From assembly GCF_030013595.1 (NCBI RefSeq), contig NZ_CP122768.1: DNA of 64,000 bases; one strand, given 5' to 3'. Made by a program: the position numbers and the translations under genes. Positions 1 to 56,199 of this stretch are shown here, piece by piece. Below the pieces are notes generated by a model. The model was not told the origin of the DNA. It searched no databases and saw only the letters and a program-made list of their open reading frames with translations. The stretch is from Escherichia coli. GTDB lineage: Bacteria; Pseudomonadota; Gammaproteobacteria; Enterobacterales; Enterobacteriaceae. Every line of letters starts with the position of its first letter. The stretch's first letter is position 1.

Positions 1-1233
1 TTCTCTTTTTAAACTGTATGTCTTCTGGATTTCCCACTAACTGACTGAAATCTCCTTTCATAACTCTTTCGCTTGTTTCAAAGAGCTGTATTGCTATCGA
101 GTCGATTAATTCCTTTTTGGACAGAGATGCTTGTTCATAAAATTTGGTGACTAACTCTGTTGGTAACTTTCTTGAGACGACTTTAATGGACAGTCTCTGA
201 AATAGGTAAGGTGCCACCACGCCCACACTGAAAGGGTGAATCCTCCCTGGATTTAATAATTTTATTGTGACGTTTTCAAAAACTAGCTCATTGATTTTAC
301 TATTTATGAATTCCATTAAATACTTATCTAATGATAATGTTACCGACGCAACCGCTTCTATCACTTGTTTAAATGGCTCGCCTTTCAAGGATTTAAAAAA
401 CTCTTTGTTATAACCAAAGAAATCCACAAAACCTAAATTTATTCGATTTTCTTCTTTAGTATTTGAAATGCGAATTTGAAGTTGTTTTAAGTCTTCATCG
501 GTCAAGTATTTTAAACCATAGTCATCAAGCGCGTTACGTATAACTTTATCTGCAGATTCTAAGTCGATTACAGTTTTTACATTAAAAAACAATGATAACA
601 ATGAATCATACTTATGAACTCGCAAGGTTAAATCTGTTGCATTTGATGCGGTTACATTTATACGTCTCAAAAGATCAATAACTTTACTAATTGGTAGGCT
701 GTTTTCAAAAATTTTGAATGACTCGTATTCAGATACAACATCTTTTATATACTTACTGATAGTATGAGACTTTATTTCCACCTCAACTTCGGTTGAGTAA
801 GAATGAATTAGTGAGTTTGTAGTTTCAGCGATGTCATTTGATACATACAACTTATATTCGAAACAATCAGGAGCGGGAAGCAACTATTATCAATAATGGA
901 AAACAATAAAAATTTAATTATTTCTCTTAATGCTTGCGGTCTAGTTATTCTACCTTGCATTTTTTTACATTGTATTAAACCACTTACAACACCGTTATGG
1001 TATAGCACGCAGTCGCGTCCTCTTTCAGAAACTCCTTGCATTAAAGATATTGAGGATATATTTTTATGCTTTCCATCTTCAATTTCGTTCTTTACTAACA
1101 AATAACATAGCAACTCAAATTCTCGATCACCTAATTCTGAAAAGGGAAGCAATCCGATACCAGAATCTATAGTCCATGGTCTATATCCTGATTGAGCCTC
1201 GATATTAATTTGTTCGTCACTGATTTTTTTCAC
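1..1233 (-). pseudogene. Mrr-type PD-(D/E)xK nuclease-domain protein with a long helical C-terminal region; frame broken near 884-887; 3' end lies beyond the window
   Basis: ORF 808..1233 carries a restriction-endonuclease-like core (GDREFELL...RGRDCVL...IQCKK). Hand translation shows a different frame open from 883 down to position 1 (LLPAPDCFEYKLYVSNDIAETT...GNPEDIQFKKR). This looks like one gene split by a 1-nt frame change. Strongly AT-rich. Confidence 0.6.
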
Positions 1234-1548: not shown

Positions 1549-1968
1549 TTAGTAACTTTTGCTCCCCTCAATAAATCCGCCATCTTTTATCGGACTGCAA
1601 TGTCCTTCTTCATCAATCAGTTGCTCGTCTTTCAGGTAGGTATATCGATAGATAATTGAGCCATTATCCATCTCACCATTGGTTCGTTTCATTAGGAGAG
1701 TAAAATGTAACGGGCTGTCCCTATATCGAGCTATTCCATGAATATTGGCAAGTACCTCATATTGACGCTCAGGTGATAACCCTTTAAATACATCGAGATA
1801 TCCATGGAATGTTCCATAGAGTGAAGAAGTGTAGATCAGTCGCTGCTCTGGACCAGTAACTTTAAGAGTAATTTGTTCACCCGTATTACAGGTTAGCTTG
1901 GCGGGAAATGTCTCAGCCTGAGCAGAAGAAATAGTCAAGCTTAAAATTATCAGGTAGCAATATTTCAT
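1549..1968 (-). CDS. small secreted protein of unknown function
   Basis: Internal ATG at 1968 gives MKYCYLIILSLTISSAQA/ETF, a typical cleavable signal peptide. AT-rich cargo context. The 5' extension of the listed ORF is unlikely to be real. Confidence 0.6.
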   Translation of the reverse strand: MKYCYLIILSLTISSAQAETFPAKLTCNTGEQITLKVTGPEQRLIYTSSLYGTFHGYLDVFKGLSPERQYEVLANIHGIARYRDSPLHFTLLMKRTNGEMDNGSIIYRYTYLKDEQLIDEEGHCSPIKDGGFIEGSKSY

Positions 1969-2376: not shown

Positions 2377-3246
<870 letters not shown>

Positions 3247-3269: not shown

Positions 3270-3305
3270 CGCAGCACGATCTTGCATACGACGTGCTACG
3301 GTTTC
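3270..3305. repeat. hairpin element copy B; probable bidirectional terminator between the GIY-YIG gene and pin
   Basis: cgcagcacgatcttgcatacgacgtgctacggtttc has a 10-bp stem with one mismatch. It abuts the pin stop codon (3304..3306). Confidence 0.6.
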
Positions 3306-3858
3306 ATTTATCTCCGACCGGAAACTTCTTATACAAAGTCGATACACCCACATCGTAGATAATCGCCACCTTCTGGCGAGGAGTTCCTGCTGCAATTAAT
3401 CTTCCGGCTTGTGCCCATTGTTCTGGTGTAAGTTTGGGACGACGTCCACCAATTCGTCCCTGTGCGCGAGCAGCTTCCAGTCCAGCTTTTGTTCGTTCAA
3501 CAATCAGTTCACGCTCCATTTCAGCCAGGGCACCCATCACATGAAAGAAAAAGCGTCCCATTGGTGTGCTGGTATCAATTGAATCCGTCAGACTATGAAA
3601 GTTGATGCCTCGTTCGCGCAACTCCTCCACCAACACGACAAGATGCCGCATACTACGCCCCAGCCGATCCAGCTTCCAGACAACCAGAGTGTCACCTGCC
3701 GATAATGTCCTGAGCAGTTTTTTCAGTCCCGGCCTTTCGGACTTTGTGCCGCTTATCTTGTCTTCAAAAATCAGCTCGCATCCTGCACAGTTCAGCGCAT
3801 TACGTTGTAGATCTGTGTTCTGGTCATTTGTTGATACGCGTACATAGCCAATAAGCAT
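3304..3858 (-). CDS. pin: serine DNA invertase Pin (Hin/Gin/Cin family)
   Basis: MLIGYVRVSTNDQNTDLQRNAL... is near-identical, from memory, to the 184-aa K-12 e14 PinE. The start is taken at the internal ATG (3858). Confidence 0.95.
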   Translation of the reverse strand: MLIGYVRVSTNDQNTDLQRNALNCAGCELIFEDKISGTKSERPGLKKLLRTLSAGDTLVVWKLDRLGRSMRHLVVLVEELRERGINFHSLTDSIDTSTPMGRFFFHVMGALAEMERELIVERTKAGLEAARAQGRIGGRRPKLTPEQWAQAGRLIAAGTPRQKVAIIYDVGVSTLYKKFPVGDK

Positions 3859-3912
3859 GGTAGATCCCCCTGACAAAAGCAGGAATGATGCCATTTGCTC
3901 GTTATTTCTGCA

Positions 3913-3938
3913 TTTTCATAAACGTTGGTTTGGGAGAA
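3913..3938. repeat. invertase crossover site (pix/gix type), left
   Basis: ttttcataaacgttggtttgggagaa is the reverse-complement counterpart of the 5774..5799 site. The AAACC-N2-GGTTT core is typical of Hin-family sites. Confidence 0.85.
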
Positions 3939-4283
3939 GCGGCAAAGAGGAATGTGGGGACAGGAGAAAATCAGGTACCGGATATGAACAGCTTTGGTAA
4001 CTCATTGACCGCCAATGGATACCAGAAATTACCTGGGGGGATGATTATTCAATGGGGGAGTTTTTCTGTCTCACCAACCGGAGGAAGTGTTGGAACAGTT
4101 GATATAACATTACCTGTAGCTTTCCCTGCTGCTTGTCGTTCGGTAAACGCTCTTATTTCAACTAATGATCCTTCTGCCCGTTCTGTGGGCTTTGATATTG
4201 GAAGTACCAACAGAACTAAAATCAGATTTACTTACACTTCTGCTACAACAAATTCAATTTACTGGATGGCTGTGGGGTATTAA
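3939..4283 (+). CDS. alternative tail-fibre C-terminal cassette, silent in the present orientation
   Basis: The frame is open through the left crossover site (..INVGLGEAAKRNVGTGENQ..). Inversion would fuse it to the constant N-terminus ending ..ALENLGLGE. Confidence 0.75.
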   Translation, partial: AAKRNVGTGENQVPDMNSFGNSLTANGYQKLPGGMIIQWGSFSVSPTGGSVGTVDITLPVAFPAACRSVNALISTNDPSARSVGFDIGSTNRTKIRFTYTSATTNSIYWMAVGY

Positions 4284-4285
4284 CT

Positions 4286-4717
4286 ATGGAAAAGACATAT
4301 TATTTTAATCCCTCTGATTCGGGATTTTATATTTCACCAGATAGCCAAACCATTCCTGAGAACGCTACGAAAATAAACTTTACTATTTATTCTGAGTTCG
4401 CAGGAGTTGCATGGCCTGATGGTAAAATACTTGGTTCAGATAAAAATGGTTTTCCAGCATGGCAGGATGCGCCACCACTTACCAGCGAAGAATTAATCTC
4501 AATCGCTGAATCAAATAAACAGCGATTAGTTAATCAGGCCAACGAATACATGAACAGTAAACAATGGCCTGGTAAAGCGGCGATTGGTCGTCTGAAAGGT
4601 GAGGAACTGGCGCAATATAATTTGTGGCTGGATTATCTGGACGCACTGGAACTGGTCGATACTTCCAGTGCGCCAGATATTGAATGGCCTACTCCTCCGG
4701 CAGTTCAGGCCAGATGA
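4286..4717 (+). CDS. alternative tail fibre assembly protein (silent orientation)
   Basis: Directly follows the alternative fibre cassette. The C-terminal motif [13 protein letters not shown] parallels that of the expressed Tfa. Confidence 0.8.
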   Translation: MEKTYYFNPSDSGFYISPDSQTIPENATKINFTIYSEFAGVAWPDGKILGSDKNGFPAWQDAPPLTSEELISIAESNKQRLVNQANEYMNSKQWPGKAAIGRLKGEELAQYNLWLDYLDALELVDTSSAPDIEWPTPPAVQAR

Positions 4718-5294
4718 CATCCGGCGCGGTACTGGTATCTGTTGCCGTCACCGCGTCAATGTAATCCAGCACAGTGTTAAGTCGGGTGGTCTCTGCCTGC
4801 ATCAGCTTCCGCCCGGCCTGCAATTTCAGTTGAATCAGACTAATGGAAGCCATTGCAGTATCAATCAGTGACTGACGTTGTGCTTCTGCCGCGTCTACTG
4901 CGGCGCTATGCTGTGTCTCAGTATCCGTTACCCATTTCTCACCATCCCATTTATCGTATGGCGTTAACGGGGCGATAGTGGTTGTTTTTTCGGGGTAATC
5001 ACCCGGAGTTGTGATTTCTTTGGCGTCTCCCGTTTCGGTGTTATAGACGATTTCACCGCGATGGTCTGGTACATATTCCCATGAGTTAAAATCTGCAGAG
5101 CGGCAGATTGCATAACCAGCTTTGTAGGTGCCTGGAGCATCTAAACAGGAATATGCCGGAATGCCGACACCAACAGCAAGATATTCAGTTGAAGCTGAAA
5201 TATACTCCCGACTCATGACGTCAAAGTTATAAACAGTAATTTCTCCTGCCATAGTGGCAATTAATTCACTGTTTAATTCTGCGTTATTCATCAT
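4689..5294 (-). CDS. tail fibre assembly protein (expressed orientation)
   Basis: Tfa-like sequence ([25 protein letters not shown]...). ATGA overlap with the fibre gene. Confidence 0.85.
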
Positions 5295-6076
5295 GCGGCC
5301 CTCACAATATAATTAAAGGCGATGTTACGTGGACGATTTTCATTTGCTGTTGGAACAACATTTGCCGCCGAGAAGTGAACATCTTGTCGGATTTTTCGGT
5401 CATTAGCGTATGTCATAGACACATTGATGTTATTCCGGACTGAGGTACCTCCGTAAAAAGCTCCACTCACACTTTGAACATCGACAATTGCATTAATTTC
5501 GCTGTTTACGCGCAACTGACCAAAACCGCCAGTAATGTTTCGAATAGCATCTCCTTGCGATGAAAGCAGAGTTCGCCCACTATCCACACCACGTTCATCA
5601 TCCCAGCCACGAATAAACTCACCGCGTAAATCAGGCAATTTATTTGTCGGGTAAGACTTTGCCAGTTCCGGGTATTCTTCAGCAGAAAAAGCCGCACCAT
5701 TGCATTTCAGCCAGCCTGTTGGTGGAGTGGCTGAAGGCCACGGAACAGGCACACCAACGGGTAATGCCGAACCTTCTCCCAAACCAAGGTTTTCGAGAGC
5801 TGTTTTCACCGTGCCATCCGATTTGATATCGCCAAACGGATTCTTGCGGCTTAACAGCAGCGCACGAAGCGCGGTAAGCAGCTGGTCATGCCGCCCCTTC
5901 TCCAGGCTGGCACCGGATGCCTCCACAACGCTGCAAAGCTCCTCCTGCAACATGTCAAAGTAGTCATCATCCAGATCGGTGGCAGGCGTGCCGGTCTGGG
6001 GGTTACCACGGGTAAAACCGTTCTTACCCGCGCCGAACTTATCCTTCTGCGCGGTTTTCGTGTCTATACGATGCAT
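5291..6076 (-). CDS. tail fibre protein (constant N-terminus 5800..6076 plus invertible C-terminus)
   Basis: Ends in [11 protein letters not shown], the same type of terminus as lambda Stf. Contains the crossover site encoding [10 protein letters not shown]. Confidence 0.85.
5774..5799. repeat. invertase crossover site, right (inside the fibre gene)
   Basis: ttctcccaaaccaaggttttcgagag, inverted relative to 3913..3938. Confidence 0.85.
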
Positions 6077-6079
6077 GGA

Positions 6080-6664
6080 TTACTCCGGATATTTAAAAAT
6101 CACATAGGTATGCGACGGGCAGAGTTTGTTAAGAACACACTCGACAACGGTGTCCCCCCAGAAGCGCAGCGCGGAATCACAGGGATCGCCACATGTCATC
6201 CAGGTGGTGTTGGTGGCGGCTGGCATGTTGACCTGCCAGTAATACCGCCATTCAGGCGCATTCACCGCGTCAGTACAGGCCGATGAGCAGGTGAACGTGC
6301 TTTTGTCGTATCGCGTGATGTTGGCATCCAGTCTGCCCAGGGCAGCAAGCTGTGCAAGATAAAAATTCTCGTTGATGCCGCCCGCCAGGTTAACCTTCGC
6401 ATCCAGCCGTTGCTGACGCTGGCGAAGGGTCTGTGTCCCTGTAGGAATACATTCATCCGGCAGGCCGCACAGACGCTCCCAGCGATTTATCAGTTCGGTG
6501 GTGGTGCGCGGATCCAGCTCCCGCATCAGGGCATCCGCACGCTGATGAACGCGGGTTAATGACGGTGCCGCACCGGCAATCGCCGGATCGCTGGCTGACC
6601 ACGCCGGACCGGGCGGCAACAGTGCTGACAACAGACGGATGTAATCATCGTTTGTCACGTCCAT
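6080..6664 (-). CDS. baseplate/tail protein (Mu gp48 / P2 gpI-like)
   Basis: Sits between baseplate J and the fibre gene. Resembles e14 YmfQ-type proteins (from memory). Confidence 0.7.
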
Positions 6665-7713
6665 GAAATCGCCCCCAGAACCGCCAGTTCATTTTTTGCA
6701 ATGGTGATATTGTCCGCCGGTGCAAGCAACTGATGGCTGTATTCCCCGTTCGCACCGGAAATCGCTTCACTGATACGTGACACCTTCAGTTCTCCCTGCG
6801 GATAACCATCACGCAGCAGGAACGAACGCAACTCCGCGGTGATGGCAGCCCGTATTTCCGGTGTGTCCGGCGTAACACGGATATGAAAATCCACCGTATG
6901 TGCCACCGGCCTGAACACATACAAATCAGAGCCTGCCACCGGGGCCAGTGGCCCGATATGTTGTCTTGCCGCCGTTTCCGTTGATTCTTCCGGAATGGGA
7001 TTAATCAGGTCACTGCTGGCAATCATCACACCGACAGTCCCCGTTCCCATCCAGTGTCGGTATGTCCATGCGCGGGTAATGCCAGGCACTTCTTTAGCCC
7101 AGACGACATAGTCCCCGTCAGCCCCGCCCTGCGGCGTCCAGTAATACCGCTCAATGACGCGGGCGCGCCACGTTTCCAGCTCTTCAGTATCAAATCCGCC
7201 TGTCAGGGTGTCAGCCACACCGGAAGACGGCAGACCATTCACCGGCGTGACCAGGATTAATGCCGTACCGTCGTCAGCGTTACCGACCGCACCTGCACTT
7301 GAGCAGGCGATCGGCACGCGCAGGACACCACCGGAGCTGATTGCATCGTCAGTTGTCGTGTACTGCACCAGGTCATCGCGCTGAATAACACTCCCGGCAG
7401 TCACCTTCAGGCCATCGCTGACACCTTCCCAGCGCATATACCCGCTGGCAACCGTGGCTCCCTTGCGCGGACACCGTTTCATCGCAGCATGTCGCGCCAA
7501 CCAGGACTCATCGCACAGGTCAGGCAGCATATTCATTGCCAGATAATCGATGTAACCGTAGACCGTATGCAGCGCCGCCGCATACACCTTTGCCCGCACG
7601 TCTTCATCCATGCGCCGGAGCGTGTCGCTGACGTCCAGCCTGGCGAATAAATCGTTACGGAGCATACTGATATTTTCTGCCAGCGTCGGGCGCTGAAATT
7701 CACTGTCCGCCAT
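6655..7713 (-). CDS. baseplate J-like protein (Mu gp47-like)
   Basis: Size, synteny and sequence character. Confidence 0.8.
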
Positions 7714-8128
7714 GCGTTATCGCACTCCACAGATCATCAAAAGAAATCATTACTGGTCCATCACGACGCCAGAGGGTGATACTGTTACCCAGCTCATTAA
7801 TCCCGGTGCGGCGGATATCCAGATCAATACGGGACACCACGCCGTCATCAGTCATCCATTGCAGGCATTCGCGGATATATCCCCTTACCGTCTGCACCAG
7901 CTGATTGGTCAGTTTGCTGCGCTGAAGCAGCCACAGTCGGGAGCCGTAACGGTCATTCTGTACCGCAGGCCAGGTATCCCCCCACCATCCCATCGGGACG
8001 TCGGCATTGTCATCAGGCTCCGCCCGCCGCCAGGTGAACAGGGAAATCACCACGGCGCGGGTCAGCGGATCCAGCGGTGCGCTGGCGCAGGTGCGTTTAC
8101 CGTTCACCGTCAGCCACAGTTCCATCAT
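7700..8128 (-). CDS. baseplate protein (Mu gp46 / gpW-gp25-like)
   Basis: Synteny between the V-like and J-like genes. Confidence 0.65.
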   Translation of the reverse strand: MMELWLTVNGKRTCASAPLDPLTRAVVISLFTWRRAEPDDNADVPMGWWGDTWPAVQNDRYGSRLWLLQRSKLTNQLVQTVRGYIRECLQWMTDDGVVSRIDLDIRRTGINELGNSITLWRRDGPVMISFDDLWSAITHGGQ

Positions 8129-8673
8129 GCCTCCATCGCTTTATCAGGTTTGTCGGTGTTACTGCCCTGACCGTTCTCTCTGTGACGATGCCCGTTATAG
8201 GCAAGCCGCATCGCTGACATGGTGGTGCCGCCGGAGTCGCACAGGTCTTTCACTTGTCCGGTCACTTCCAGATCCATTTCAAAACGTGCTTCAGTTGCAT
8301 TGCGAAACGTGATCGTTTTCCCTGCACCGTCCACCACGATCCCCTCCCGGGTCAGCGTCACAGACTGCCCCTGATCGTCATAGACAGCCACCTCACCCGT
8401 CTGCAGCCCTTTCAGGCGGTAGCGCCGGTCCGACACCGTAACAACCACCGCATGAGAACGGTCGCCATCCGGAAACAACACCACCGCTTCCGCACCGCTG
8501 TTTGCCCTTGCGGTAAAACCGTAGGGTTCAAGATGTTCAACCCCGGCTTTGGGTTCACCGGCAATCAGGGACACATCCACGGTCTGACATTTCGTGGCGG
8601 CACTGATGCTTTTCACCACGGCCCGCCCAATCAGGCCGAGAAGTTGTCGCTGCATGGCTTCAATCGTCCTCAT
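8125..8673 (-). CDS. baseplate assembly protein V / spike (Mu gp45-like)
   Basis: The C-terminal YNGHRHRENGQGS motif is typical of gpV-type spikes. Confidence 0.8.
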   Translation of the reverse strand: MRTIEAMQRQLLGLIGRAVVKSISAATKCQTVDVSLIAGEPKAGVEHLEPYGFTARANSGAEAVVLFPDGDRSHAVVVTVSDRRYRLKGLQTGEVAVYDDQGQSVTLTREGIVVDGAGKTITFRNATEARFEMDLEVTGQVKDLCDSGGTTMSAMRLAYNGHRHRENGQGSNTDKPDKAMEA

Positions 8674-9752
8674 CAGAACGGGTCCTCCTGTACTCTGGCT
8701 TTTTTCTTTTTCCGCGCGCCGGGGGCTTCGGGTCCAGGCAGATAAGCATCAGGCGGGCCGACACGGATTTCCGTCAGGGTGCCGTTCTGGTCCTGAGTAA
8801 ACGTGACTTCCGAGACAAGCAGTTCGGTATTGTCGAAACCACAGACCGGATCGAAGACAATCACCCGCTGGTTGGGCTGCCACAGCGTACCGTTACCCTG
8901 TCGCCAGCCCTGCACCACATAGGTGGTTTCATCCGTCCGCGCCGCCCGTTGCCGGGCTTCAAAGTCAGCACGCGCAATACAGCCTGCCCCCGTAGCCTGC
9001 CCTGTCTGCCTGATATACATCGGACGGTAACGGGCAATAAATGCGTCTTCTGTGCGGGCCCGCAGCGCGGTGGTGGTGGCCTCACCGAAATCATCGTCGT
9101 TTCCGGCACGCTGCCCCGCCACCTGGTAAACAGAAAACCGCTCCCGGATACTCTTCTCCGTATCGCAGGAAAGGATGTTTTCCCCGAGTACCAGCGCGGT
9201 ATGTGCCCGCGTTGAGCCAATACCGCCAATCACCAGCCTGCCGTGCGAGTCGTCGTAAGCCAGCGCCTGCTGCTGACCGAGTATTTTGTTGATCACCTCG
9301 ATCACCGTTTCACCGTGATCAGGCTGGACATCAGGAATAACACCCGACGGCGCACCGCTGTTCACCACCTCAATGCCGAAAGGCGCAGCAAGCGCCTGCG
9401 CAATCTGTACCAGCGATCGTCCGTTAAACTGTGTCGGTTCGGCTGCACAGTCAATCAGGTCAGCGGTCAGACTACGTCCGGCAATACCGGTGCTGACCGA
9501 ACGGGCATCGTAACGAACGGGCGTCGCCTCCACCCAGCCAGTGATCACCAGCTCATCACCAATCAGCACTTCCACTTTTGAACCGTTTTTAATGCGCGGC
9601 TGAAGCGTGGTGATACCCTCATCTCCCGGCCACTGGCGGGTGATCTCCACACTGAAATCCCGCGCCAGTCGTTCAACACCGGCACCGATGCGCACCGATG
9701 TCCAGCCATTCCACTCCCGGCCATTTACCCGTAGCGTGACGTTATCGTTCAT
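8673..9752 (-). CDS. Mu P-like tail/baseplate hub protein
   Basis: Synteny and size. Confidence 0.7.
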   Translation of the reverse strand: MNDNVTLRVNGREWNGWTSVRIGAGVERLARDFSVEITRQWPGDEGITTLQPRIKNGSKVEVLIGDELVITGWVEATPVRYDARSVSTGIAGRSLTADLIDCAAEPTQFNGRSLVQIAQALAAPFGIEVVNSGAPSGVIPDVQPDHGETVIEVINKILGQQQALAYDDSHGRLVIGGIGSTRAHTALVLGENILSCDTEKSIRERFSVYQVAGQRAGNDDDFGEATTTALRARTEDAFIARYRPMYIRQTGQATGAGCIARADFEARQRAARTDETTYVVQGWRQGNGTLWQPNQRVIVFDPVCGFDNTELLVSEVTFTQDQNGTLTEIRVGPPDAYLPGPEAPGARKKKKARVQEDPF

Positions 9753-11083
9753 TGCACTGGCACCTTCAGAGGGATCACCGGCACAAAGCCGGGATGCGTA
9801 ATGGCATTACGCCGGATAATGTCCCCGTCACGCGCCGCGTTATCAAACCAGGTCGCCGCCAGCACCAGCGCGGGTAAAACCTCATCCGGCGTGCGCTGAA
9901 TGATCCGTGCAGACTGTTCAAGGCGCGTGTTGATATCCGCATTCAGATCTGCTTTCACCCGGCGCAGCGCCAGAAACAGCGCATCACTGGTTGTACGGGA
10001 CAACTCCTTATCAATTGCCGTATTCAGTGTGTCGCGAATGTCAGTCAGTTCTTCCCACGTTGGCAGGTCAACCGTGCTTTTCACCGCCGGTGCATTGTTC
10101 AGTGCCGGATGCGTGACGGAAGGCCAGCCAGTGCTCTGCGCGGGTGTTGTTGCCTGCCCCACTGCGGCATTCTGCATCACCGCGGAAGTTGTTGGCGCAG
10201 GCAATCGGGTGACGGCATACGCCGCTTCGCTGATTGCGGTCGTACGAAGGATGCTGGCAACCACGTTACGCTGCTGTGTCGCCGTGGCGGTGGTTTTACT
10301 GTCCGTTTTCCAGACGCCGCGCGGTTGCAGATCGCTGCCAAGGCTGACACCGGAAAGCGTTTTGATCATGGTGACCAGGTCGCTGGCGTTACCATAAAGG
10401 CGTTTCCCGGTACGCCACATTTTCTGCACCTGCTCAACGAAATTTTTGCCTGACGATGGTGGCGGCAGAAGTACCGAGATATCCCCCTGCAACAGCCTGG
10501 CAGCATCCGATACGGCAGAATCCACCACTTTCATCGCATCAGAAACATACCCAAGCATTGTGCTGGCATTACCGACGACGTCGTTCTGCACAAAATCCGC
10601 CACGCCATCGATACTGAAACCGCTGAAGCTGTCACTGATGCAGTTATCCAGTGCAGAACAGGATGACATCAGCGTCTGCGCCGTCGCCGCACCTGATGTG
10701 GGGTAAGAGAGTTCTCCTGCTTCGACAAACTTCAGGTCAAAGCGGACAATACGCCCTTCACTTTTCGATGTGCTGACCCGAACTTCCCCGTCAACACAGA
10801 CTTTCAGCTCACCGTATGTCGGATGGACAAGCGTGCCGGGACCGGGTTTATTCAGCGCGTCAATCAGGCGATCGCGCTGGTCAAAGCAGTCATCTCCCAC
10901 CACATAAGCCGTGATGGACGGGCGAAAAGTGATTTTCCCCAGGTCTTCGGTATAGGGTTTGTCGCGGTTCGGGTATTCATGTGTTTCCACACGGCGACCG
11001 GTTCCCGCACTTTCTTCTTCAACCTTAAACGGCACACCTCGAAATGACGCATCCTGAAGCCTGTCTTTCCACGTCATATACAC
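9749..11083 (-). CDS. DNA circulation protein (Mu N-like)
   Basis: N-terminus MTWKDRLQDASFRGVPFKVEEES is typical of the family (the ORF track shows two extra residues upstream). Synteny after the tape measure. Confidence 0.75.
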   Translation of the reverse strand: MYMTWKDRLQDASFRGVPFKVEEESAGTGRRVETHEYPNRDKPYTEDLGKITFRPSITAYVVGDDCFDQRDRLIDALNKPGPGTLVHPTYGELKVCVDGEVRVSTSKSEGRIVRFDLKFVEAGELSYPTSGAATAQTLMSSCSALDNCISDSFSGFSIDGVADFVQNDVVGNASTMLGYVSDAMKVVDSAVSDAARLLQGDISVLLPPPSSGKNFVEQVQKMWRTGKRLYGNASDLVTMIKTLSGVSLGSDLQPRGVWKTDSKTTATATQQRNVVASILRTTAISEAAYAVTRLPAPTTSAVMQNAAVGQATTPAQSTGWPSVTHPALNNAPAVKSTVDLPTWEELTDIRDTLNTAIDKELSRTTSDALFLALRRVKADLNADINTRLEQSARIIQRTPDEVLPALVLAATWFDNAARDGDIIRRNAITHPGFVPVIPLKVPVQ

Positions 11084-11087
11084 TCCG

Positions 11088-11118
11088 AAAATAAAAAAGC
11101 CACCTATTAGAAGGTGGC
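11088..11118 (-). terminator. rho-independent terminator of the moron
   Basis: Minus strand reads GCCACCT-tctaat-AGGTGGC followed by TTTTTTATTTT. Confidence 0.75.
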
Positions 11119-11138
11119 CTTGTAATGAATTTTATTAA

Positions 11139-21322: not shown

Positions 21323-23056
21323 TTAAAGCGAGCGGATCCCATAGGACTCAATGTGGTCAGACAACGTGTCTTCTTTCTCGTACAGCATGGCTCTGCCAAC
21401 CGCCATAATCAGCGCAACTGCACCATCGATTTTGTTTTCCGCCTGCTCTTTGACGGGCTTCACCACATCATCGTTACCCGGAATGGTTTTGCCGACCACG
21501 TTGCCGATACACCAGGTCATGATGGGATTGCCATCATGATGAAAGCGCCCCGATTCAATTGCCGCTTCCAGCTCTTTCATCGGGTCGGACATGTTGGTGT
21601 AGTTCTGAATGATAGTGATGGGGTTCAGGTCTTCATCAGCCAGGTCATGTGACAGCCCGGTCGCCCCGAAGGGGTCGATGGGTGACTCACTGACCGGGCT
21701 GATTTTGTTCGCCGCTTTGGCCTCCTCGAGGATGTAGCGATAATCCACCTCCGCACCATCGGTAACGGTCAGAACGCCCATTACCACCCATTTCTGAAAG
21801 CGTTCGGCTGTCCGTCGATCTTCATTTTTCTCGACACTGTACACCGTGTCATACGGTACCCAGAAACGCGGGGCCACACTGTAGTAATGCGTTTTACCGT
21901 CAATCTCGCGGGTATAAAGTCGCGCCATGCTGTTCATATCCAGCTTACGCGCCAGGTCAAAGGCCAGAATGCACGGCTGCCCCTCGAACTGCTCAAGGGT
22001 CAGTGATTTATCCTCGCAGCTCTGCCAGCTCACCAGGTTGAAATACGCCGAACGCGCCGACACCCAGATATTGAGGTGCTTTGTTTTAAAGACGTTTGCC
22101 AGACGGGCGTTATTTTTCGCACGCTGCTGCTGACTTAACAAAAATTCGCGATAAACCGACACGCCAATATTCGGGTTAGCTTTTTCCAGCACCTGCGGGT
22201 CGGTCCAGTCATCGCCTTCGTCAACGGTATAGATGATCCCGAACAGTTCATCGTTGGGTACCGACCCGTTGAGCATCTCGATAACTTCCCGCCGCTTGTC
22301 GTAGCACGGCCCCTCAATGTTGTACCCGGCAGTAGTAATGGCCCACATCAGTGGCTGACGTCGCGCCCCCATCCCGGTAAGCATCGTGGTGTAAAGCGCA
22401 TCGGTGGCGTGCTCGTGATATTCATCCACCACCGCACAGTGGGGTGATGATCCATCACCGGGGTTACCGATCAGCGGTTCAAACCGCGCGCCATCCTCCG
22501 GACGGTTCATGTTTGAGGCGTTAACCTCAATCCCGAACGCTTCCGTCAGCATGGGCGTGCGTTTACACATCAGTCGCGCCGGGCGAAAGACTTCCCACGC
22601 CTGTTTCTCTGTCGTGGCACCGGAATACACTTCCGCGCCAAACTCGTTATCACAGGCAAAACAATACAGGGCAACACCGGCAGAGATTGCTGATTTGCCG
22701 TTCTTACGGGGGATTTCGGTATACACCTCCCGGAAGCGGCGCAACCGGGTGCCTTTATTGACCCAGCCAAACGCACAGCAGATCACAAAGAGCTGCCACG
22801 GCTCCAGCGTGATGGGCATCCTCTTGAATGCCCACTCACCCTTGGTGTGCGGCAACAGCTGAATAAATTTGGCGGCCCGTTCAGCCAGGTCCTTGTCGAA
22901 GCGGTAACGAAACGACTTACTTTTTTCCGCCATCAGGTCATCAAGATGGCGCTGGCAGGCCTGAATCACAAACTGGCAGGCCACAATCTTTCCGCGAACG
23001 ACATCCCGGGCATACTGATTGGCAGCATTTACGTTGGGGTAAGATTTCCGGCTCAT
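21323..23056 (-). CDS. terminase large subunit
   Basis: 577 aa; Walker A-like GKSA region; synteny. Confidence 0.95.
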
Positions 23057-23556
23057 GATTCGATGATTTTCAGAAACGGGTTAGTAGCTTTCTTCTGCCC
23101 CGCCAGGCCAATCAGACGCTGGCGGCTGCTGGGGTCGAGTCCGAGCATTGCCCCCGTGCTGCTCATCTCGGACTCCTGTTCTTTTTTGGCGGTCAGCTCA
23201 GGATTTTTGACCATACCGCCCATTGCACCGGTGATGGTGTTGCCCTGTCTGGCAATATTTTTCACGGCACGTCGCCAGAACTCATAGGCCACACACCACC
23301 GCTCAAGCACCGCGAGGTCAGTCACGCACAGCAGGCCCTGACCGCAAAGTTCTTTAGTTGTCAGTTGCCACATGATCGTGGCGAGAGGGAGATCTTCTTC
23401 AGCGAACCACTCCGGTGGCTCAACACCTTTGATGGGCGTAAAAACAGGTTCATCTTTATTCAGGGCTCGCTTGCCGGGGTTTCCGGCCAGCGCCTTGCGC
23501 GCCGTTGGCTTGGGGCGACGCCCGGAACGCCCCGCCGTTCCAGCCATATGCGGCAC
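23053..23556 (-). CDS. terminase small subunit (P27 family)
   Basis: N-terminus [25 protein letters not shown] is typical of the family. Confidence 0.85.
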
Positions 23557-23672
23557 TCCTGGTTAAATTTCATTTTTCGCGGGTATAAAAAAACGATGGG
23601 GCGGGCAGTCCGGAAGACGTCAGGTCACAGAGATTTGACCCGCCCCTCCCCTCAGACAGTTGAGAATTATTA

Positions 23673-24023
23673 TCACTTTAGCCGTTCACGGGCCGTCTTC
23701 GCCTTATGGCACGGCCAGCACAGGCTCTGCAGATTACTGTCTGCATCGGTGCCGCCATGCGCTTTAGGGATGATGTGGTCAACGGTTTTCGCCTCACGCA
23801 CCACACCAGCACGCAGACATAACTGACACAGGCCTTTGTCACGCTTCAATATGCGCGCGCGGATACTGTCCCACTTCGAACCGTAGCCGCGCTGATGACG
23901 GGATTGCCCCGGCTTGTATTGTTTCCAGCCTTCGTTTTTGTGGCTTTCGCAGTAGCCTGACGGGTCTGTAGTGGTATTACGGCAGCCGCGAACGCGGCAG
24001 GCTTTTGGGATTCGTGATGGCAT
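23673..24023 (-). CDS. phage HNH endonuclease (terminase-associated)
   Basis: Motif DHIIPKAHGGTDADSNLQSLCWPCHKAKT. Start at ATG 24023, preceded by GGAG. Confidence 0.85.
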   Translation of the reverse strand: MPSRIPKACRVRGCRNTTTDPSGYCESHKNEGWKQYKPGQSRHQRGYGSKWDSIRARILKRDKGLCQLCLRAGVVREAKTVDHIIPKAHGGTDADSNLQSLCWPCHKAKTARERLK

Positions 24024-24246
24024 ATGTACTCCAATGAAGAAGCCACCGACATAGCCTCCTCCATTCATCGTGAAACTATTTTCATCTACGCAGTCATGAA
24101 TTCTTTGTAGAGTTGTGATCAATACAACTCACTAATGGAGAGGCTTGTCCAACACGTTGGACAAGTTTCCTGTTTGATTTACTGGACACTATAGAAGGAC
24201 AGAATGCCTTCCTCACTCGAATAACATTAATTAAGGAGGTTCAACA

Positions 24247-25575
24247 CTGATGAATCCCCTAATGATTTTGGTAAAAATCATTAAGTTAAGGTGGATACAC
24301 ATCTTGTCATATGATCAAATGGTTTCGCGAAAAATCAATAATCAGACAACAAGATGTGCGAACTCGATATTTTACACGACTCTCTTTACCAATTCTGCCC
24401 CGAATTACACTTAAAACGACTCAACAGCTTAACGTTGGCTTGCCACGCATTACTTGACTGTAAAACTCTCACTCTTACCGAACTTGGCCGTAACCTGCCA
24501 ACCAAAGCGAGAACAAAACATAACATCAAACGAATCGACCGATTGTTAGGTAATCGTCACCTCCACAAAGAGCGACTCGCTGTATACCGTTGGCATGCTA
24601 GCTTTATCTGTTCGGGCAATACGATGCCCATTGTACTTGTTGACTGGTCTGATATTCGTGAGCAAAAACGACTTATGGTATTGCGAGCTTCAGTCGCACT
24701 ACACGGTCGTTCTGTTACTCTTTATGAGAAAGCGTTCCCGCTTTCAGAGCAATGTTCAAAGAAAGCTCATGACCAATTTCTAGCCGACCTTGCGAGCATT
24801 CTACCGAGTAACACCACACCGCTCATTGTCAGTGATGCTGGCTTTAAAGTGCCATGGTATAAATCCGTTGAGAAGCTGGGTTGGTACTGGTTAAGTCGAG
24901 TAAGAGGAAAAGTACAATATGCAGACCTAGGAGCGGAAAACTGGAAACCTATCAGCAACTTACATGATATGTCATCTAGTCACTCAAAGACTTTAGGCTA
25001 TAAGAGGCTGACTAAAAGCAATCCAATCTCATGCCAAATTCTATTGTATAAATCTCGCTCTAAAGGCCGAAAAAATCAGCGCTCGACACGGACTCATTGT
25101 CACCACCCGTCACCTAAAATCTACTCAGCGTCGGCAAAGGAGCCATGGGTTCTAGCAACTAACTTACCTGTTGAAATTCGAACACCCAAACAACTTGTTA
25201 ATATCTATTCGAAGCGAATGCAGATTGAAGAAACCTTCCGAGACTTGAAAAGTCCTGCCTACGGACTAGGCCTACGCCATAGCCGAACGAGCAGCTCAGA
25301 GCGTTTTGATATCATGCTGCTAATCGCCCTGATGCTTCAACTAACATGTTGGCTTGCGGGCGTTCATGCTCAGAAACAAGGTTGGGACAAGCACTTCCAG
25401 GCTAACACAGTCAGAAATCGAAACGTACTCTCAACAGTTCGCTTAGGCATGGAAGTTTTGCGGCATTCTGGCTACACAATAACAAGGGAAGACTTACTCG
25501 TGGCTGCAACCCTACTAGCTCAAAATTTATTCACACATGGTTACGCTTTGGGGAAATTATGAGGGGATCTCTCAG
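24247..25575 (+). mobile_element. IS10, complete (1329 bp)
   Basis: Outside end CTGATGAATCCCCTAATGATTTTGG and inside end ..GGGGAAATTATGAGGGGATCTCTCAG. The flanking 9-mers differ (ggttcaaca versus tattaagcg). Confidence 0.97.
24354..25562 (+). CDS. IS10 transposase
   Basis: 402 aa, MCELDILHDSLYQFCPELHLKRLNS...; ATG at element nt 108. Confidence 0.97.
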   Translation: MCELDILHDSLYQFCPELHLKRLNSLTLACHALLDCKTLTLTELGRNLPTKARTKHNIKRIDRLLGNRHLHKERLAVYRWHASFICSGNTMPIVLVDWSDIREQKRLMVLRASVALHGRSVTLYEKAFPLSEQCSKKAHDQFLADLASILPSNTTPLIVSDAGFKVPWYKSVEKLGWYWLSRVRGKVQYADLGAENWKPISNLHDMSSSHSKTLGYKRLTKSNPISCQILLYKSRSKGRKNQRSTRTHCHHPSPKIYSASAKEPWVLATNLPVEIRTPKQLVNIYSKRMQIEETFRDLKSPAYGLGLRHSRTSSSERFDIMLLIALMLQLTCWLAGVHAQKQGWDKHFQANTVRNRNVLSTVRLGMEVLRHSGYTITREDLLVAATLLAQNLFTHGYALGKL

Positions 25576-26519
25576 TATTAAGCGTCAATGAGCGTCTGGA
25601 AAGAATGAAAGGCAGGCGCTCAGACATTACGGTGACAGAATGGCTTGATAAATATATTTCTATCCAGGAGGACAGGCTGCAACATAATGAACTAAGACCC
25701 AACTCCTATCGGCAAAAAGGCAAACCCATTCGTCTTTTCCGTGAGCATTGTGGAATGCAACACCTCAAGGATATTACCGCACTTGATATTGCCGAAATAA
25801 TTGATGCTGTAAAGGCTGAAGGTCATAACAGGATGGCGCAAGTCGTGAGAATGGTGTTGATCGACGTCTTCAAAGAAGCACAACACGCAGGACATGTTCC
25901 GCCAGGATTTAACCCAGCGCAGGCAACAAAACAACCGCGAAATCGAGTAAACCGCCAAAGATTGTCACTGCCCGAATGGCAGGCAATATTTGAAAGCGTA
26001 AGCAGACGGCAGCCCTATTTAAAATGCGGCATGCTACTTGCTCTTGTTACTGGACAACGTTTAGGCGATATCTGCAATTTGAAATTCTCTGATATATGGG
26101 ACGACATGTTGCACATTACTCAGGAAAAAACCGGTTCAAAACTTGCTATTCCGCTTAACCTGAAATGCGATGCTCTGAATATTACCCTTCGTGAAGTTAT
26201 ATCTCAGTGCAGGGATGCTGTTGTTAGTAAATATCTGGTCCATTACCGTCACACTACCTCTCAAGCAAACAGAGGAGACCAGGTTTCTGCAAATACTCTG
26301 ACAACGGCTTTTAAAAAGGCCCGGGAAAAATGTGGCATAAAATGGGAGCAAGGAACTGCGCCCACATTTCATGAGCAGCGATCTCTGTCAGAACGGTTAT
26401 ATCGGGAACAGGGTCTGGATACGCAAAAGTTGTTAGGCCATAAATCCAGAAAAATGACCGACCGATACAATGATGATCGTGGTAAAGACTGGATTATCGT
26501 AGATATCAAAACAGCATAG
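25576..26519 (+). pseudogene. lambda-family tyrosine integrase lacking the N-terminal arm-binding domain (cut by IS10)
   Basis: Aligns to lambda Int from about residue 60 (ITVTEWLDKY versus VTLHSWLDRY) to the end (HELRSL..LLGH..Y). The frame is open up to the IS10 junction. Confidence 0.85.
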
Positions 26520-26529
26520 AAAATAGCCA

Positions 26530-26565
26530 GTTTTGGGGAAGGGTTTTGGGGAAAGTTTTGGGGAA
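26530..26565 (+). repeat. three tandem GTTTTGGGGAA repeats (12-13 bp period)
   Basis: Read directly from the sequence, between the int stop and the icd terminator. Confidence 0.8.
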
Positions 26566-26580
26566 GATTTTACATCATCA

Positions 26581-26609
26581 TAAAACAACGGGCGTGTTAT
26601 ACGCCCGTT
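26581..26609 (-). terminator. icd rho-independent terminator
   Basis: Minus strand reads AACGGGCG-tataaca-CGCCCGTT followed by GTTTTA. Confidence 0.65.
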
Positions 26610-26632
26610 TCAATATTTAACACATGTAGAGA

Positions 26633-27883
26633 TTACATGTTCTTGATGATTGCATCACCAAACTCGCTGCATTTCAGCAGTTTAGCACCTTCCATCAGAC
26701 GTTCGAAGTCATAGGTTACGGTCTTGGCGTTGATTGCGCCTTCCATACCTTTAACAATCAAGTCTGCGGCTTCAGTCCAGCCCATATGGCGCAGCATCAT
26801 CTCAGCGGAGAGAATAATAGAGCCTGGGTTTACTTTGTCCTGACCGGCATATTTCGGCGCAGTACCGTGGGTGGCTTCAAACAGGGCGCATTCGTCACCG
26901 ATGTTTGCGCCTGGGGCGATACCGATACCGCCGACCTGTGCAGCCAGAGCGTCAGAAATGTAGTCACCGTTCAGGTTCATACAGGCGATAACATCATATT
27001 CAGCCGGACGCAGCAGGATCTGTTGCAGGAATGCGTCAGCAATCACGTCTTTAATGACGATCTCTTTGCCGGTATTCGGGTTTTTAACTTTCAGCCACGG
27101 GCCGCCGTCGATCAGTTCACCGCCAAACTCTTCACGCGCCAGCTGGTAGCCCCAGTCTTTAAACGCGCCTTCGGTGAACTTCATGATGTTGCCTTTGTGC
27201 ACCAGGGTCACAGAGTCACGATCGTTAGCAATTGCGTATTCGATCGCTGCACGAACCAGACGTTTGGTGCCTTCTTCCGAACACGGCTTAATACCGATAC
27301 CGCAATGTTCCGGGAAGCGAATTTTCTTCACGCCCATCTCTTCACGCAGGAATTTAATCACTTTCTCGGCGTCGGCAGAGTCAGCTTTCCATTCGATACC
27401 CGCATAAATGTCTTCCGAGTTTTCACGGAAGATAACCATATCGGTCAGTTCAGGGTGTTTAACCGGGCTTGGAGTGCCCTGATAGTAACGTACCGGACGC
27501 AGGCAGATGTAGAGATCCAGTTCCTGACGCAGGGCAACGTTCAGAGAGCGAATACCGCCACCAACCGGAGTGGTCAGCGGACCTTTAATGGCAACGCGAT
27601 ATTCACGAATCAGATCAAGGGTTTCAGCAGGCAGCCAGACATCCTGACCATAAACCTGTGTGGATTTTTCACCGGTGTAAATTTCCATCCAGGAGATTTT
27701 ACGCTCGCCTTTATAGGCTTTCTCGACTGCAGCGTCGACCACTTTCAGCATGGCTGGGGTTACATCTACACCGATTCCATCACCTTCAATGTAAGGGATA
27801 ATCGGATTTTCAGGAACGTTGAGTTTGCCGTTTTGCAGGGTGATCTTCTTGCCTTGTGCCGGAACAACTACTTTACTTTCCAT
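26633..27883 (-). CDS. icd: isocitrate dehydrogenase (NADP)
   Basis: Full-length 416-aa match to E. coli Icd. The C-terminus reads ..[14 protein letters not shown]. Confidence 0.98.
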
Positions 27884-55488: not shown

Positions 55489-56199
55489 TTACGGCATACT
55501 CATCAGCAGGTCTTCCTCACCGCGCCCGGCAGTTCCGCCACCGGAAACCGCACTGGCAGCATGCTGTGCCATAAAGCGATCAAAAAGTGTTTCCTGTGAC
55601 GGTTGCGATGCCGCCGGCGCGGCTGCCAGCAGCGTTTTCGCCTGCGCCACCGTCATTCCCGGTTGTTCTGTCAGTGCCTGTGCAAGTTGCTCGCGCCCTT
55701 TTGCCTCCGGCAGCGCCATAATCTGATCGCCGACACTTGCAGAACCAGCAACCGGTGCCGCCGCCAGTAACGTTTTGGCCTGGTCAACGGTCATTCCCGG
55801 CTGTTCAGCCAGCGCCTGCGCGAGTTGTTCACGCCCTTTTGCTTCCGGTAACGCCATAATCTGATCGCCTGTGCCTGCAGCACCAGCAGCAGGGGCTGCC
55901 GCCAGAAACGCTTTCGCCTGCTCCACCGTCATCCCCGGCTGACCTGCCAGCATCTGTGCCAGTTGCTCACGCCCCTTTGCTTCCGGCAGCCCCATAATCT
56001 GATCGCCCGTGCTGTCAGTACCGGCAACCGGCGCAGCTGCAAGCAACGTTTTCGCCTGCTCAACCGTCATTCCTGGCTGACCTGCCAGCATTTGCGCCAG
56101 TTGCTCGCGCCCTTTCGCCTCCTGACAATTCAGGATCCCCATCACGCGCTGATTTTCCTGGGCCACCGCTTCAGCAACGGTGAGATTTTTAACAGTCAT
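55489..56199 (-). CDS. nested in-frame scaffold protein (lambda Nu3 analogue)
   Basis: In-frame ATG at 56199, preceded by AAGGAGA at 5-nt spacing. Same arrangement as lambda C/Nu3. Confidence 0.55.
   Translation of the reverse strand: MTVKNLTVAEAVAQENQRVMGILNCQEAKGREQLAQMLAGQPGMTVEQAKTLLAAAPVAGTDSTGDQIMGLPEAKGREQLAQMLAGQPGMTVEQAKAFLAAAPAAGAAGTGDQIMALPEAKGREQLAQALAEQPGMTVDQAKTLLAAAPVAGSASVGDQIMALPEAKGREQLAQALTEQPGMTVAQAKTLLAAAPAASQPSQETLFDRFMAQHAASAVSGGGTAGRGEEDLLMSMP

What the first reader, a model, noticed from the sequence alone, without database searches (positions are those of the whole stretch)
24024..25604. IS10 without a target-site duplication marks deletion of the whole early/immunity/lysis region
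IS10 normally makes a 9-bp duplication, but here the flanks differ (ggttcaaca versus tattaagcg). On the right, the integrase frame runs straight into the IS end and lacks about 55-60 N-terminal residues, the arm-binding domain. On the left, only 224 bp separate the IS from the HNH/terminase genes. No xis, repressor, replication, antiterminator or lysis genes exist between them. The simplest reading is an IS10 insertion in int followed by an IS10-promoted adjacent deletion. That leaves a locked-in prophage retaining an essentially complete virion module (about 20 kb).
Basis: partly seen in the sequence, partly recalled or inferred. Interest (0 to 1): 0.55.

Follow-up and report, generated by a model that had tools for sequence, protein, structure and literature searches.

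The report
IS10-marked 16.9-kb deletion in prophage
A copy of the jumping gene IS10 sits where 16.9 kb of a virus integrated in the E. coli icd gene has been lost, which is an ordinary and now precisely documented case of a dormant virus being disabled by a mobile element.

Summary
An intact 1,329-bp IS10 (24247-25575) has different 9-bp flanks: GGTTCAACA on the left and TATTAAGCG on the right. A near-identical genome without this IS10 (GCA_900448395.1, contig UFZA01000001.1) matches the window on both sides, with 1 mismatch in 7,918 bp on the left and 0 in 5,563 bp on the right. Between the two breakpoints it carries 16,912 bp: bor, the lysis genes, Q, the nin genes, replication genes, cI, a SIR2 gene, kil-gam-bet-exo, xis and int codons 1-67. 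Contigs of the same lineage end about 750 bp left of the window in a second copy of the icd 3' end. The element is therefore one icd-integrated prophage with an internal deletion, not a chromosomal rearrangement.

Int lacks 67 residues, not 55-60. The virion module is not complete, because the tape-measure gene has an amber stop at codon 256. The intact relatives share that stop, so it predates the deletion.

The data cannot separate IS10 insertion followed by adjacent deletion from recombination between two IS10 copies. IS10's outward promoter pOUT faces the promoterless late operon. Overall this is ordinary IS-mediated prophage decay and of low novelty.

The parts
24247..25575 (+). Intact IS10 (IS10R/ISVsa5 type). 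The outside end is on the left and the inside end on the right.
   Evidence: Sequence and terminal repeats. It is 99.3-99.8% identical to annotated ISVsa5-family copies.
24354..25562 (+). IS10 transposase ORF, 402 aa. Its TGA stop (25560-25562) happens to be in frame with int'.
24292..24361 (-). RNA-OUT, marking promoter pOUT. It is transcribed toward the IS10 outside end and the phage late genes.
   Evidence: Rfam RF00240, 98.8 bits, E=1.3e-20.
24238..24246 (.). Left flank 9-mer GGTTCAACA. It matches 4 of 6 positions of the IS10 target consensus NGCTNAGCN and is a symmetric GTTNAAC. Homology with IS10-free relatives ends exactly here.
25576..25584 (.). Right flank 9-mer TATTAAGCG. It matches 4 of 6 consensus positions, with one perfect half-site AGC. 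Homology with intact int resumes exactly here.
24024..24246 (.). Remaining 223 bp of the HNH-bor intergenic spacer. It contains one plus-strand hairpin with a T-run at 24140-24169.
25576..26519 (+). int' remnant, covering codons 68-380 of a 380-aa lambda-type tyrosine integrase. Only the catalytic PF00589 part is left; the PF09003 arm-binding domain is lost. The first in-frame ATG is at 25605 (304-aa ORF).
26530..26571 (+). Three tandem GTTTTGGGGAA repeats between the int stop and the icd stop. They are candidate P' arm-type Int binding sites (inferred).
26582..26791 (.). attL side: the icd 3' end, which is repeated at 97.6% identity about 750-960 bp left of window position 1 (attR, an icd' fragment) in contigs of the same lineage.
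   Evidence: L027-L029, which are 99.9-100% identical to window 1-833.
26633..27883 (-). icd (isocitrate dehydrogenase, 416 aa), the integration target.
23673..24023 (-). HNH endonuclease, the first gene of the retained late block. In relatives it follows the lysis genes and bor.
23557..23672 (.). HNH-terS spacer, the expected cos region. The SfV, SfII and SfIV genome records start or end at window 23596-23672.
   Evidence: the cos assignment is inferred.
21323..23547 (-). Terminase large subunit (21323-23056, 577 aa) and small subunit (23053-23547, 164 aa), both full length.
13735..21311 (-). Head and proximal tail genes: ymfR, portal, protease, major capsid, connector, head closure, tail terminator, sheath, tube and chaperone. 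All are full length compared with relatives.
11761..13593 (-). Tail tape-measure gene, a pseudogene. It has an amber TAG at codon 256 (window 12826-12828), which is CAG in S51, 0H26 and S88.
5291..11669 (-). Mu-like baseplate and tail-fibre genes, full length.
3304..5792 (.). pin invertase gene (3304-3894, minus strand) and the invertible tail-fibre segment 3920-5792, which is bounded by 20-nt inverted repeats. The segment has the opposite orientation in the near-identical contig L027.
1..3246 (.). attR-proximal cargo. It comprises a frameshifted copy of a 488-aa gene (1-1233, minus strand), a 139-aa gene (1549-1968, minus strand) and a GIY-YIG gene (2473-3246, plus strand).

Best explanation
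The window carries one icd-integrated mosaic prophage. Its packaging, head and tail genes are SfV/SfII/e14-like, and it uses a lambda-type Int specific for icd. The prophage has lost a contiguous 16,912-bp block running from the HNH-bor spacer to int codon 67, and a single intact IS10 sits exactly at the deletion joint.

The most likely route is transposase- or IS-homology-mediated. IS10 first inserted at one of the two sites. Then one of two things happened. Either an IS10-promoted adjacent deletion occurred, in which the IS ends attacked a second target site 16.9 kb away in the same prophage. Or a second IS10 copy inserted in the same orientation at the other site and RecA-dependent recombination between the two copies removed the interval and one copy. 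Both routes leave one IS10 flanked by two different target-like 9-mers, as seen here.

The deletion itself, its endpoints and its content are shown. The order of events is inferred.

The consequences follow from gene content. The remnant has no functional Int (the arm-binding domain is gone), no xis, no repressor, no replication genes, no Q or late promoter and no lysis genes. It therefore cannot excise, replicate, switch on its late genes in the normal way or lyse the cell. It was already unable to build tails before the deletion, because of the tape-measure amber stop.

The only promoter now placed upstream of the late operon is IS10 pOUT, which points into HNH-terS-terL. Whether it drives expression of those genes is untested.
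For: - IS10 anatomy and the non-matching flanks are.
- Progenitor-like contig UFZA01000001.1 (L064 and L071) has no IS10 in this interval. It is identical to the window apart from 1 mismatch in 7,918 bp on the left and 0 in 5,563 bp on the right. It holds 16,912 bp between ...GGTTCAACA| and |TATTAAGCG....
- Two more IS10-free relatives (L044, L046) are 99.92-99.99% identical over 17.2 kb, and their homology also stops at window 24246.
- The S51 alignment breaks at the same base.
- Intact int sequences read ...CAAA TATTAAGCG TCAATG. The exact reconstructed 380-aa Int exists in the protein collection on at least 1,000 contigs, and sits next to icd in the ten places shown.
- An icd' repeat lies at the far end of the prophage in contigs of the same lineage.
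- Each flank matches 4 of 6 positions of NGCTNAGCN in exact register with the IS ends. By my own calculation the chance is about 0.04 per flank and about 0.0014 for both. This consensus is recalled from Halling & Kleckner 1982.
- The same right junction occurs in an independent read set (L014, SRR25521803). Three draft contigs start at that base.
- PMC11708052 documents missing TSDs caused by adjacent deletion or by recombination between IS copies, and cites Roberts et al. 1991 for IS10 adjacent deletions.
Against: - No intermediate allele was found. Neither a simple IS10 insertion with a TSD in int nor one in the HNH-bor spacer turned up in 5,426 complete E. coli genomes, in the species-representative genomes (int-site junction only) or among protein fragments.
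- The left junction was not found in any independent data set. It therefore rests on the window assembly alone.
- IS10 transposes by cut-and-paste and promotes adjacent deletions only at low frequency (Roberts et al. 1991, cited; the details are from memory).
- The two-copy route needs two same-orientation insertions within 17 kb.
Confidence: 0.85

Rival explanations
1. The deletion is an assembly artefact. The real genome has two IS10 copies in direct orientation, one in the HNH-bor spacer and one in int, each with its own 9-bp duplication. The assembler collapsed them and skipped the 16.9 kb between.
For: A collapse would give exactly the flanks seen: GGTTCAACA-IS10-TATTAAGCG. Short-read contigs of the lineage break at the IS boundary (L008-L010), so they cannot confirm linkage across the IS. 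The left junction was not found independently.
Against: The window runs uninterrupted for 64 kb through a 1.3-kb multicopy IS, which suggests a long-read or finished assembly. In such an assembly, skipping 17 kb of unique sequence is unlikely. This point is inferred, because I cannot see the reads.
Confidence: 0.05
2. The late module and int' come from two different prophages, one at thrW and one at icd, and were joined by recombination between IS10 copies at two chromosomal loci. On this view the event was an inversion, translocation or duplication joint rather than a local deletion.
For: Closely similar late modules and the same cargo genes are otherwise seen in thrW-integrated prophages. 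The same int type usually accompanies lambda-like late genes at icd.
Against: Contigs of the same lineage show an icd' fragment just beyond the cargo genes. UFZA01000001.1 shows the very same late module, early region, int and icd contiguous at 99.99-100% identity. In addition, both segments have the same orientation relative to the K-12 gene order, so a simple inversion would not produce this joint (inferred).
Confidence: 0.02
3. The deletion and the IS10 insertion were one event. IS10 moved into a double-strand break or deletion intermediate without making a duplication, as Ngan et al. 2024 proposed for IS5 and IS481. Alternatively, its two ends attacked two separate targets.
For: No intermediate with a TSD was found. 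PMC11708052 reports de novo IS movements associated with large deletions that lack a TSD.
Against: Both flanks are in exact 9-bp register with reasonable IS10 target sequences (4 of 6 each), which points to transposase-chosen targets rather than random breaks. The IS10 transpososome normally captures one target and joins both ends 9 bp apart (established knowledge, not tested here). The search for intermediates covered few close relatives of this lineage.
Confidence: 0.08

Closest known systems
IS-associated deletions that leave an IS without a target-site duplication (IS10 adjacent deletions, Roberts, Ascherman & Kleckner 1991; IS150, IS1 and IS5 cases in Ngan et al. 2024, PMC11708052)
   Same: A single intact IS sits at the joint of a large deletion, has non-matching flanks, and shows no microhomology at the endpoints.
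   Different: The present case is a natural isolate, so the order of events was not observed. IS10 is a cut-and-paste element for which adjacent deletion is reported to be rare, so recombination between two copies is an equally good route.
E. coli K-12 cryptic prophage e14
   Same: It is integrated in icd and has SfV-like late genes (ymfQ, ymfR, pinE and tail-fibre genes carry e14 names in the annotations). It also has a pin invertible segment, cargo at the far end, and is defective through large internal loss. PMC3636060 describes the relatedness of e14, SfV and SfI.
   Different: As I recall it, e14 kept int, xis and part of the early region and lost most virion genes. This element did the reverse. 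Here int lies directly next to icd and is lambda-type with a PF09003 arm domain. I did not compare it with e14 IntE.
Shigella/E. coli temperate myoviruses SfV, SfII, SfI, SfIV and vB_EcoM-689R6
   Same: There is about 97% DNA identity over 17-18 kb of terminase, HK97-type head and Mu-type tail genes. The gene order HNH-cos-terS-terL is the same.
   Different: Those phages integrate at thrW and carry gtr O-antigen genes. This element sits in icd, has different cargo and lacks the whole early half.
Tn10/IS10 pOUT activation of adjacent genes (Ciampi, Schmid & Roth 1982; Simons et al. 1983; recalled, not read here)
   Same: RNA-OUT/pOUT points out of the IS10 outside end into the adjacent HNH-terminase operon, on the same strand and 224 bp away.
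   Different: No expression data exist. Without Q antitermination, transcription would probably stop early. The first minus-strand terminator-like hairpin is at 21293-21266, but such sites are no more frequent here than expected by chance.

Membership tests
IS10 (IS4 family) | About 1,329 bp long, with imperfect terminal inverted repeats of about 23 bp starting CTGA | tested here: met
   24247-25575 is 1,329 bp, and 17 of 23 terminal positions match between the two ends.
IS10 (IS4 family) | Single 402-aa DDE transposase ORF | tested here: met
   The ORF at 24354-25562 is 402 aa. The matching RefSeq features are annotated as 'IS4-like element ISVsa5 family transposase'.
IS10 (IS4 family) | RNA-OUT antisense RNA near the outside end | tested here: met
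   RF00240, 98.8 bits against a gathering score of 41.
IS10 (IS4 family) | 9-bp target-site duplication for a simple insertion | tested here: not met
   The flanks are GGTTCAACA and TATTAAGCG. This is the anomaly, and the 16,912-bp deletion explains it. It speaks against a simple insertion, not against the element being IS10.
IS-mediated deletion (adjacent deletion or IS-IS recombination) | A relative lacking the IS carries contiguous extra DNA exactly between the two IS flanks | tested here: met
   UFZA01000001.1 has 16,912 bp between the flanks, and the flanks are 99.99-100% identical to the window.
IS-mediated deletion (adjacent deletion or IS-IS recombination) | An intermediate with the IS and a TSD at one endpoint | tested here: not met
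   None was found in complete E. coli genomes, in the species-representative genomes or among protein fragments. Sampling of close relatives is thin, so this does not exclude the mechanism.
Lambda-type tyrosine integrase | N-terminal arm-binding domain (PF09003) together with the catalytic domain (PF00589) | tested here: not met
   Full-length relatives have both domains. The 304-aa ORF called on the window's int' has only PF00589, and residues 1-67 are absent. It is a truncated member of the family and presumably cannot carry out arm-dependent integration or excision (inferred).
icd-integrated prophage (e14-like integration) | icd 3' end duplicated at both prophage ends, with int next to icd | tested here: met
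   A 210-bp repeat at 97.6% identity lies at 26582-26791 and again about 750-960 bp left of the window in contigs of the same lineage. int' ends 114 bp from the icd stop.
SfV-like temperate myovirus virion module | Complete set of intact packaging, head and tail genes | tested here: not met
   All genes are full length except the tape-measure gene, which has an amber stop at codon 256.

The most novel reading that the evidence does not exclude
The IS10 joint is more than a scar. Its outward promoter pOUT now replaces the lost Q-dependent late promoter and constitutively transcribes HNH, terminase and perhaps the head genes of a locked-in prophage that still has cos. In addition, the stretch of int around codons 56-71 may be a recurrent IS target. 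IS10, two IS629-like insertions and IS2 all hit it in different genomes, which would suggest a hotspot or selection for disabling the arm-binding domain of this integrase.
Probability: 0.1. Interest if true: 0.4.

Novelty: new member of a known kind. Interest (0 to 1): 0.2.

Why it matters
This case shows with base-pair precision how an insertion sequence converts an inducible prophage into a fixed remnant. The progenitor state survives in a near-identical genome. The remnant can no longer kill the cell, because kil, the lysis genes, replication genes and the repressor switch were all removed together. The prophage had already lost the ability to make tails, so the deletion removes a liability rather than a functioning virus.

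The practical value is for annotation. An IS without a duplication next to a truncated integrase is a reliable flag for a deletion. Completeness of a virion module should be checked for point nonsense mutations before tailocin or particle production is proposed. The finding does not change what is known about IS10 or prophage decay.

Tried and rejected
- **Chromosomal rearrangement between a thrW prophage and an icd prophage.** I considered this seriously because the late genes and cargo are otherwise seen at thrW. I rejected it after finding the icd' fragment at the far end and the contiguous progenitor.
- **E. coli S88 'e14' as an intact icd relative.** The SfI paper led me to it, but that prophage lies next to glaH/gabD, not icd.
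- **CH4794 as a relative.** It has the same int at icd and an IS10 nearby, but that IS10 is upstream of xis and the late genes are lambda-like. It is an unrelated event.
- **Predicted precursor junctions.** Neither int-TATTAAGCG-IS10 nor IS10-GGTTCAACA-bor occurs in the complete E. coli genomes.
- **Exact junction scans.** Scans of the species-representative genomes and the JGI metagenomes found nothing.
- **Predicted 81-aa Int(1-67)-IS10 fusion protein.** The protein search found none. It turned up only other IS truncations of the int N-terminus.
- **Roberts et al. 1991.** The paper could not be read because it is not held.
- **Terminator scan of the late operon.** It was uninformative: 25 sites were found against 19.4 +/- 4.8 expected.
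Full report
**What is there**

Window 24247-25575 is a complete IS10 of 1,329 bp. Its left end reads CTGATGAATCCCC... and the reverse complement of its right end reads CTGAGAGATCCCC.... It carries an intact 402-aa transposase ORF at 24354-25562 on the + strand. It is 99.3-99.8% identical to copies annotated as 'IS4-like element ISVsa5 family transposase' in E. coli genomes. Rfam places RNA-OUT at 24292-24361 on the minus strand (98.8 bits). The outside end of the IS is therefore on the left.

The nine bases on either side differ: GGTTCAACA at 24238-24246 and TATTAAGCG at 25576-25584.

**Surroundings**

To the left, on the minus strand, lies a late-gene block:
- HNH endonuclease (23673-24023)
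- terminase small subunit (23053-23547) and large subunit (21323-23056)
- portal, protease and major capsid
- head-tail genes, sheath and tube
- tape measure, Mu-like baseplate and tail fibres
- a pin invertase, a GIY-YIG gene and two cargo genes

This block is about 97% identical to Shigella phages SfII, SfI, SfIV and SfV and to Escherichia phage vB_EcoM-689R6, and to many E. coli prophages.

To the right, the int frame is open up to the IS end. icd follows on the minus strand at 26633-27883, then rluE, nudJ, mnmA, hflD, purB and phoPQ.

**The integrase remnant**

Intact alleles read ...CGACAAA TATTAAGCG TCAATGAGCG.... The full protein is 380 aa with PF09003 (arm-binding) and PF00589 (catalytic) domains. 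The exact sequence formed by the N-terminal 67 residues plus the window's 313 residues exists in the protein collection on at least 1,000 contigs. It lies next to icd, with xis upstream, in the ten places shown. The window therefore lacks residues 1-67.

**One prophage or two?**

This needed checking. The late module and the cargo genes are otherwise found in thrW-integrated prophages. The same int at icd usually accompanies lambda-like late genes.

The window stops short of the far attachment site. However, one cargo gene is frameshifted in the window (ORF 808-1233), and that gave a lineage-specific handle. An exact look-up of this ORF returned draft contigs that are 99.9-100% identical to window 1-833. 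They continue about 1 kb further left and end in a 210-bp copy of the icd 3' end, 97.6% identical to window 26582-26791. The element is thus bounded by icd sequence on both sides. It is a mosaic phage: SfV-like late genes combined with an icd-specific integration module.

**The progenitor state**

A head-closure protein variant led to three IS10-free relatives: L044, L045 and L046. They are 99.92-99.99% identical to window 7057-24246, and their homology ends at base 24246.

I walked along one of them, GCA_900448395.1 contig UFZA01000001.1, in two further steps. This gave a continuous 30.4-kb sequence running from the head genes through to purB. It matches the window with 1 mismatch in 7,918 bp on the left of the IS and 0 mismatches in 5,563 bp on the right. 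It contains no IS10. It holds exactly 16,912 bp between ...GGTTCAACA| and |TATTAAGCG....

That interval encodes:
- bor
- Rz, lysozyme, holin and a DUF3800 protein
- Q, ylcG, rusA, ybcO, ninE and ybcN
- an esterase, an emrE-like gene and ren
- P, O, ydaT, ydaS and cI
- a SIR2-family gene
- kilR, gam, bet and exo
- DUF1317, DUF1382, traR and DUF4222
- xis and int codons 1-67

There is no microhomology at the endpoints. The window therefore equals the progenitor minus 16,912 bp plus 1,329 bp of IS10. By my arithmetic, the ancestral prophage was about 43.3 kb and the remnant is about 27.7 kb including the IS.

All ten HNH-carrying relatives shown have bor and lysis genes next to HNH.

**Mechanism**

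Each flank matches 4 of 6 specified positions of the IS10 target consensus NGCTNAGCN (recalled from Halling & Kleckner 1982), in exact register with the IS ends. The left flank is a symmetric GTTNAAC, and the right flank has a perfect AGC half-site. By my calculation the chance is about 0.04 per flank. This argues that the transposase chose both sites.

Three routes fit the data:
- insertion in int followed by an adjacent deletion leftward
- insertion in the HNH-bor spacer followed by an adjacent deletion rightward
- two same-orientation insertions followed by homologous recombination

I found no intermediate in 5,426 complete E. coli genomes, in species-representative genomes (int-site junction only) or among protein fragments. 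The order of events is therefore unresolved.

The literature treats adjacent deletion and recombination between IS copies as the usual causes of missing duplications. It cites Roberts et al. 1991 for IS10 adjacent deletions at low frequency (PMC11708052). The same paper proposes one-step IS-plus-deletion events, which I keep as a minor rival.

An assembly collapse of two IS10 copies would give the same flanks. It cannot be excluded from the window alone, because the left junction was not found in independent data. The right junction does occur in an independent read set (L014), and three draft contigs start at that base.

**Is the virion module complete?**

It is not. Every late gene is full length compared with relatives except the tape-measure gene (11761-13593, minus strand). 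Its codon 256 is TAG, where S51, 0H26 and S88 have CAG. The same stop is present in the IS10-free relatives L044-L047, and the gene is called as 255-aa and 339-aa pieces in L045 and L047.

The prophage could therefore already not make normal tails before the deletion. Its induction would have killed cells without yielding infectious phage. This makes loss of the early and lysis half plausibly advantageous (inferred). It also makes particle or tailocin production unlikely.

**Expression**

The Q gene was deleted, along with the late promoter that lies just downstream of it in lambdoid phages (established lambda biology; the promoter itself was not mapped here). IS10 pOUT now points into the spacer and the HNH-terS-terL operon on the same strand. 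The only terminator-like hairpin in the spacer is on the other strand. The first minus-strand candidate terminator is at 21293-21266, but such sites are no more frequent than in shuffled sequence. pOUT-driven turn-on of adjacent genes is established for Tn10 (recalled). Here it is only a possibility.

**Comparison and verdict**

This is a documented instance of IS-mediated prophage decay, the same kind of process that produced K-12 e14 at the same site. Other genomes show the same icd prophage cut down by IS1 (L048-L055) and by an IS629-like element without a duplication (L005). The finding is real, and its main interpretation is right. Its novelty and interest are low.

Noticed in passing
window 25576-25610; loci L005-L007 around int'; proteins P0002, P0168, P0170: The N-terminal part of this int gene is hit by several different ISs in other genomes. 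An IS629-like element abuts ...TCA|ATGAGCG only 9-12 bp downstream of the IS10 site. In L005 it carries a group II intron, also lacks a duplication, and has only McrBC and an acyltransferase left of it. P0168 is Int 1-58 fused to an IS629-like end, and P0170 is Int 1-56 fused to an IS2 end. P0002 is altered before codon 22. This may be a hotspot or may be ascertainment bias.
   Followed up: partly
window 11761-13593 (amber at 12826-12828): The tape-measure gene has a CAG-to-TAG nonsense codon at position 256. The IS10-free near-identical prophages L044-L047 share it, so the prophage was tail-defective before the deletion.
   Followed up: yes
window 3920-5792: The tail-fibre segment next to pin is bounded by 20-nt inverted repeats (3920-3939 and 5773-5792). 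It has the opposite orientation in contig L027, which is otherwise 99.96-100% identical. The Pin-type invertible switch therefore still appears to flip in this lineage.
   Followed up: partly
window 26530-26571: Three tandem GTTTTGGGGAA repeats lie between the int stop and the icd stop. They look like P' arm-type Int binding sites, which the truncated Int can no longer use.
   Followed up: no
window 25560-25607: The IS10 transposase stop codon TGA (25560-25562) is in the same frame as int', with no further stop between them. Stop-codon readthrough would give a transposase-Int' fusion. This is probably coincidence (one chance in three).
   Followed up: no
L008, L009 (start at window 25578/25579); L014: Two draft contigs start at the same int base as the IS10 junction, yet their chromosomal flank is about 2% diverged from the window. 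The divergence is about 5% in the icd 3' end. L014 has the IS10 end plus int' with 3 mismatches. The same right junction therefore seems to exist in another genetic background, through either independent insertion or transfer.
   Followed up: partly
window 1-1233: A 488-aa cargo gene of unknown function, intact in thrW-integrated relatives, is frameshifted here. It and the neighbouring 139-aa gene occupy the slot that holds an ATP-dependent nuclease in strain Sx181-0-1. This may be a defence-gene slot.
   Followed up: no
L064/L071 (UFZA01000001.1), the deleted interval: The lost 16.9 kb carried accessory genes as well as phage functions: a SIR2-family gene next to cI, bor, an esterase and an emrE-like transporter. 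The deletion therefore also removed possible host-benefit genes.
   Followed up: no
window 55610-56122: There are three tandem copies of a 237-nt unit at 138-bp spacing (79% identity) in the chromosomal part of the window.
   Followed up: no
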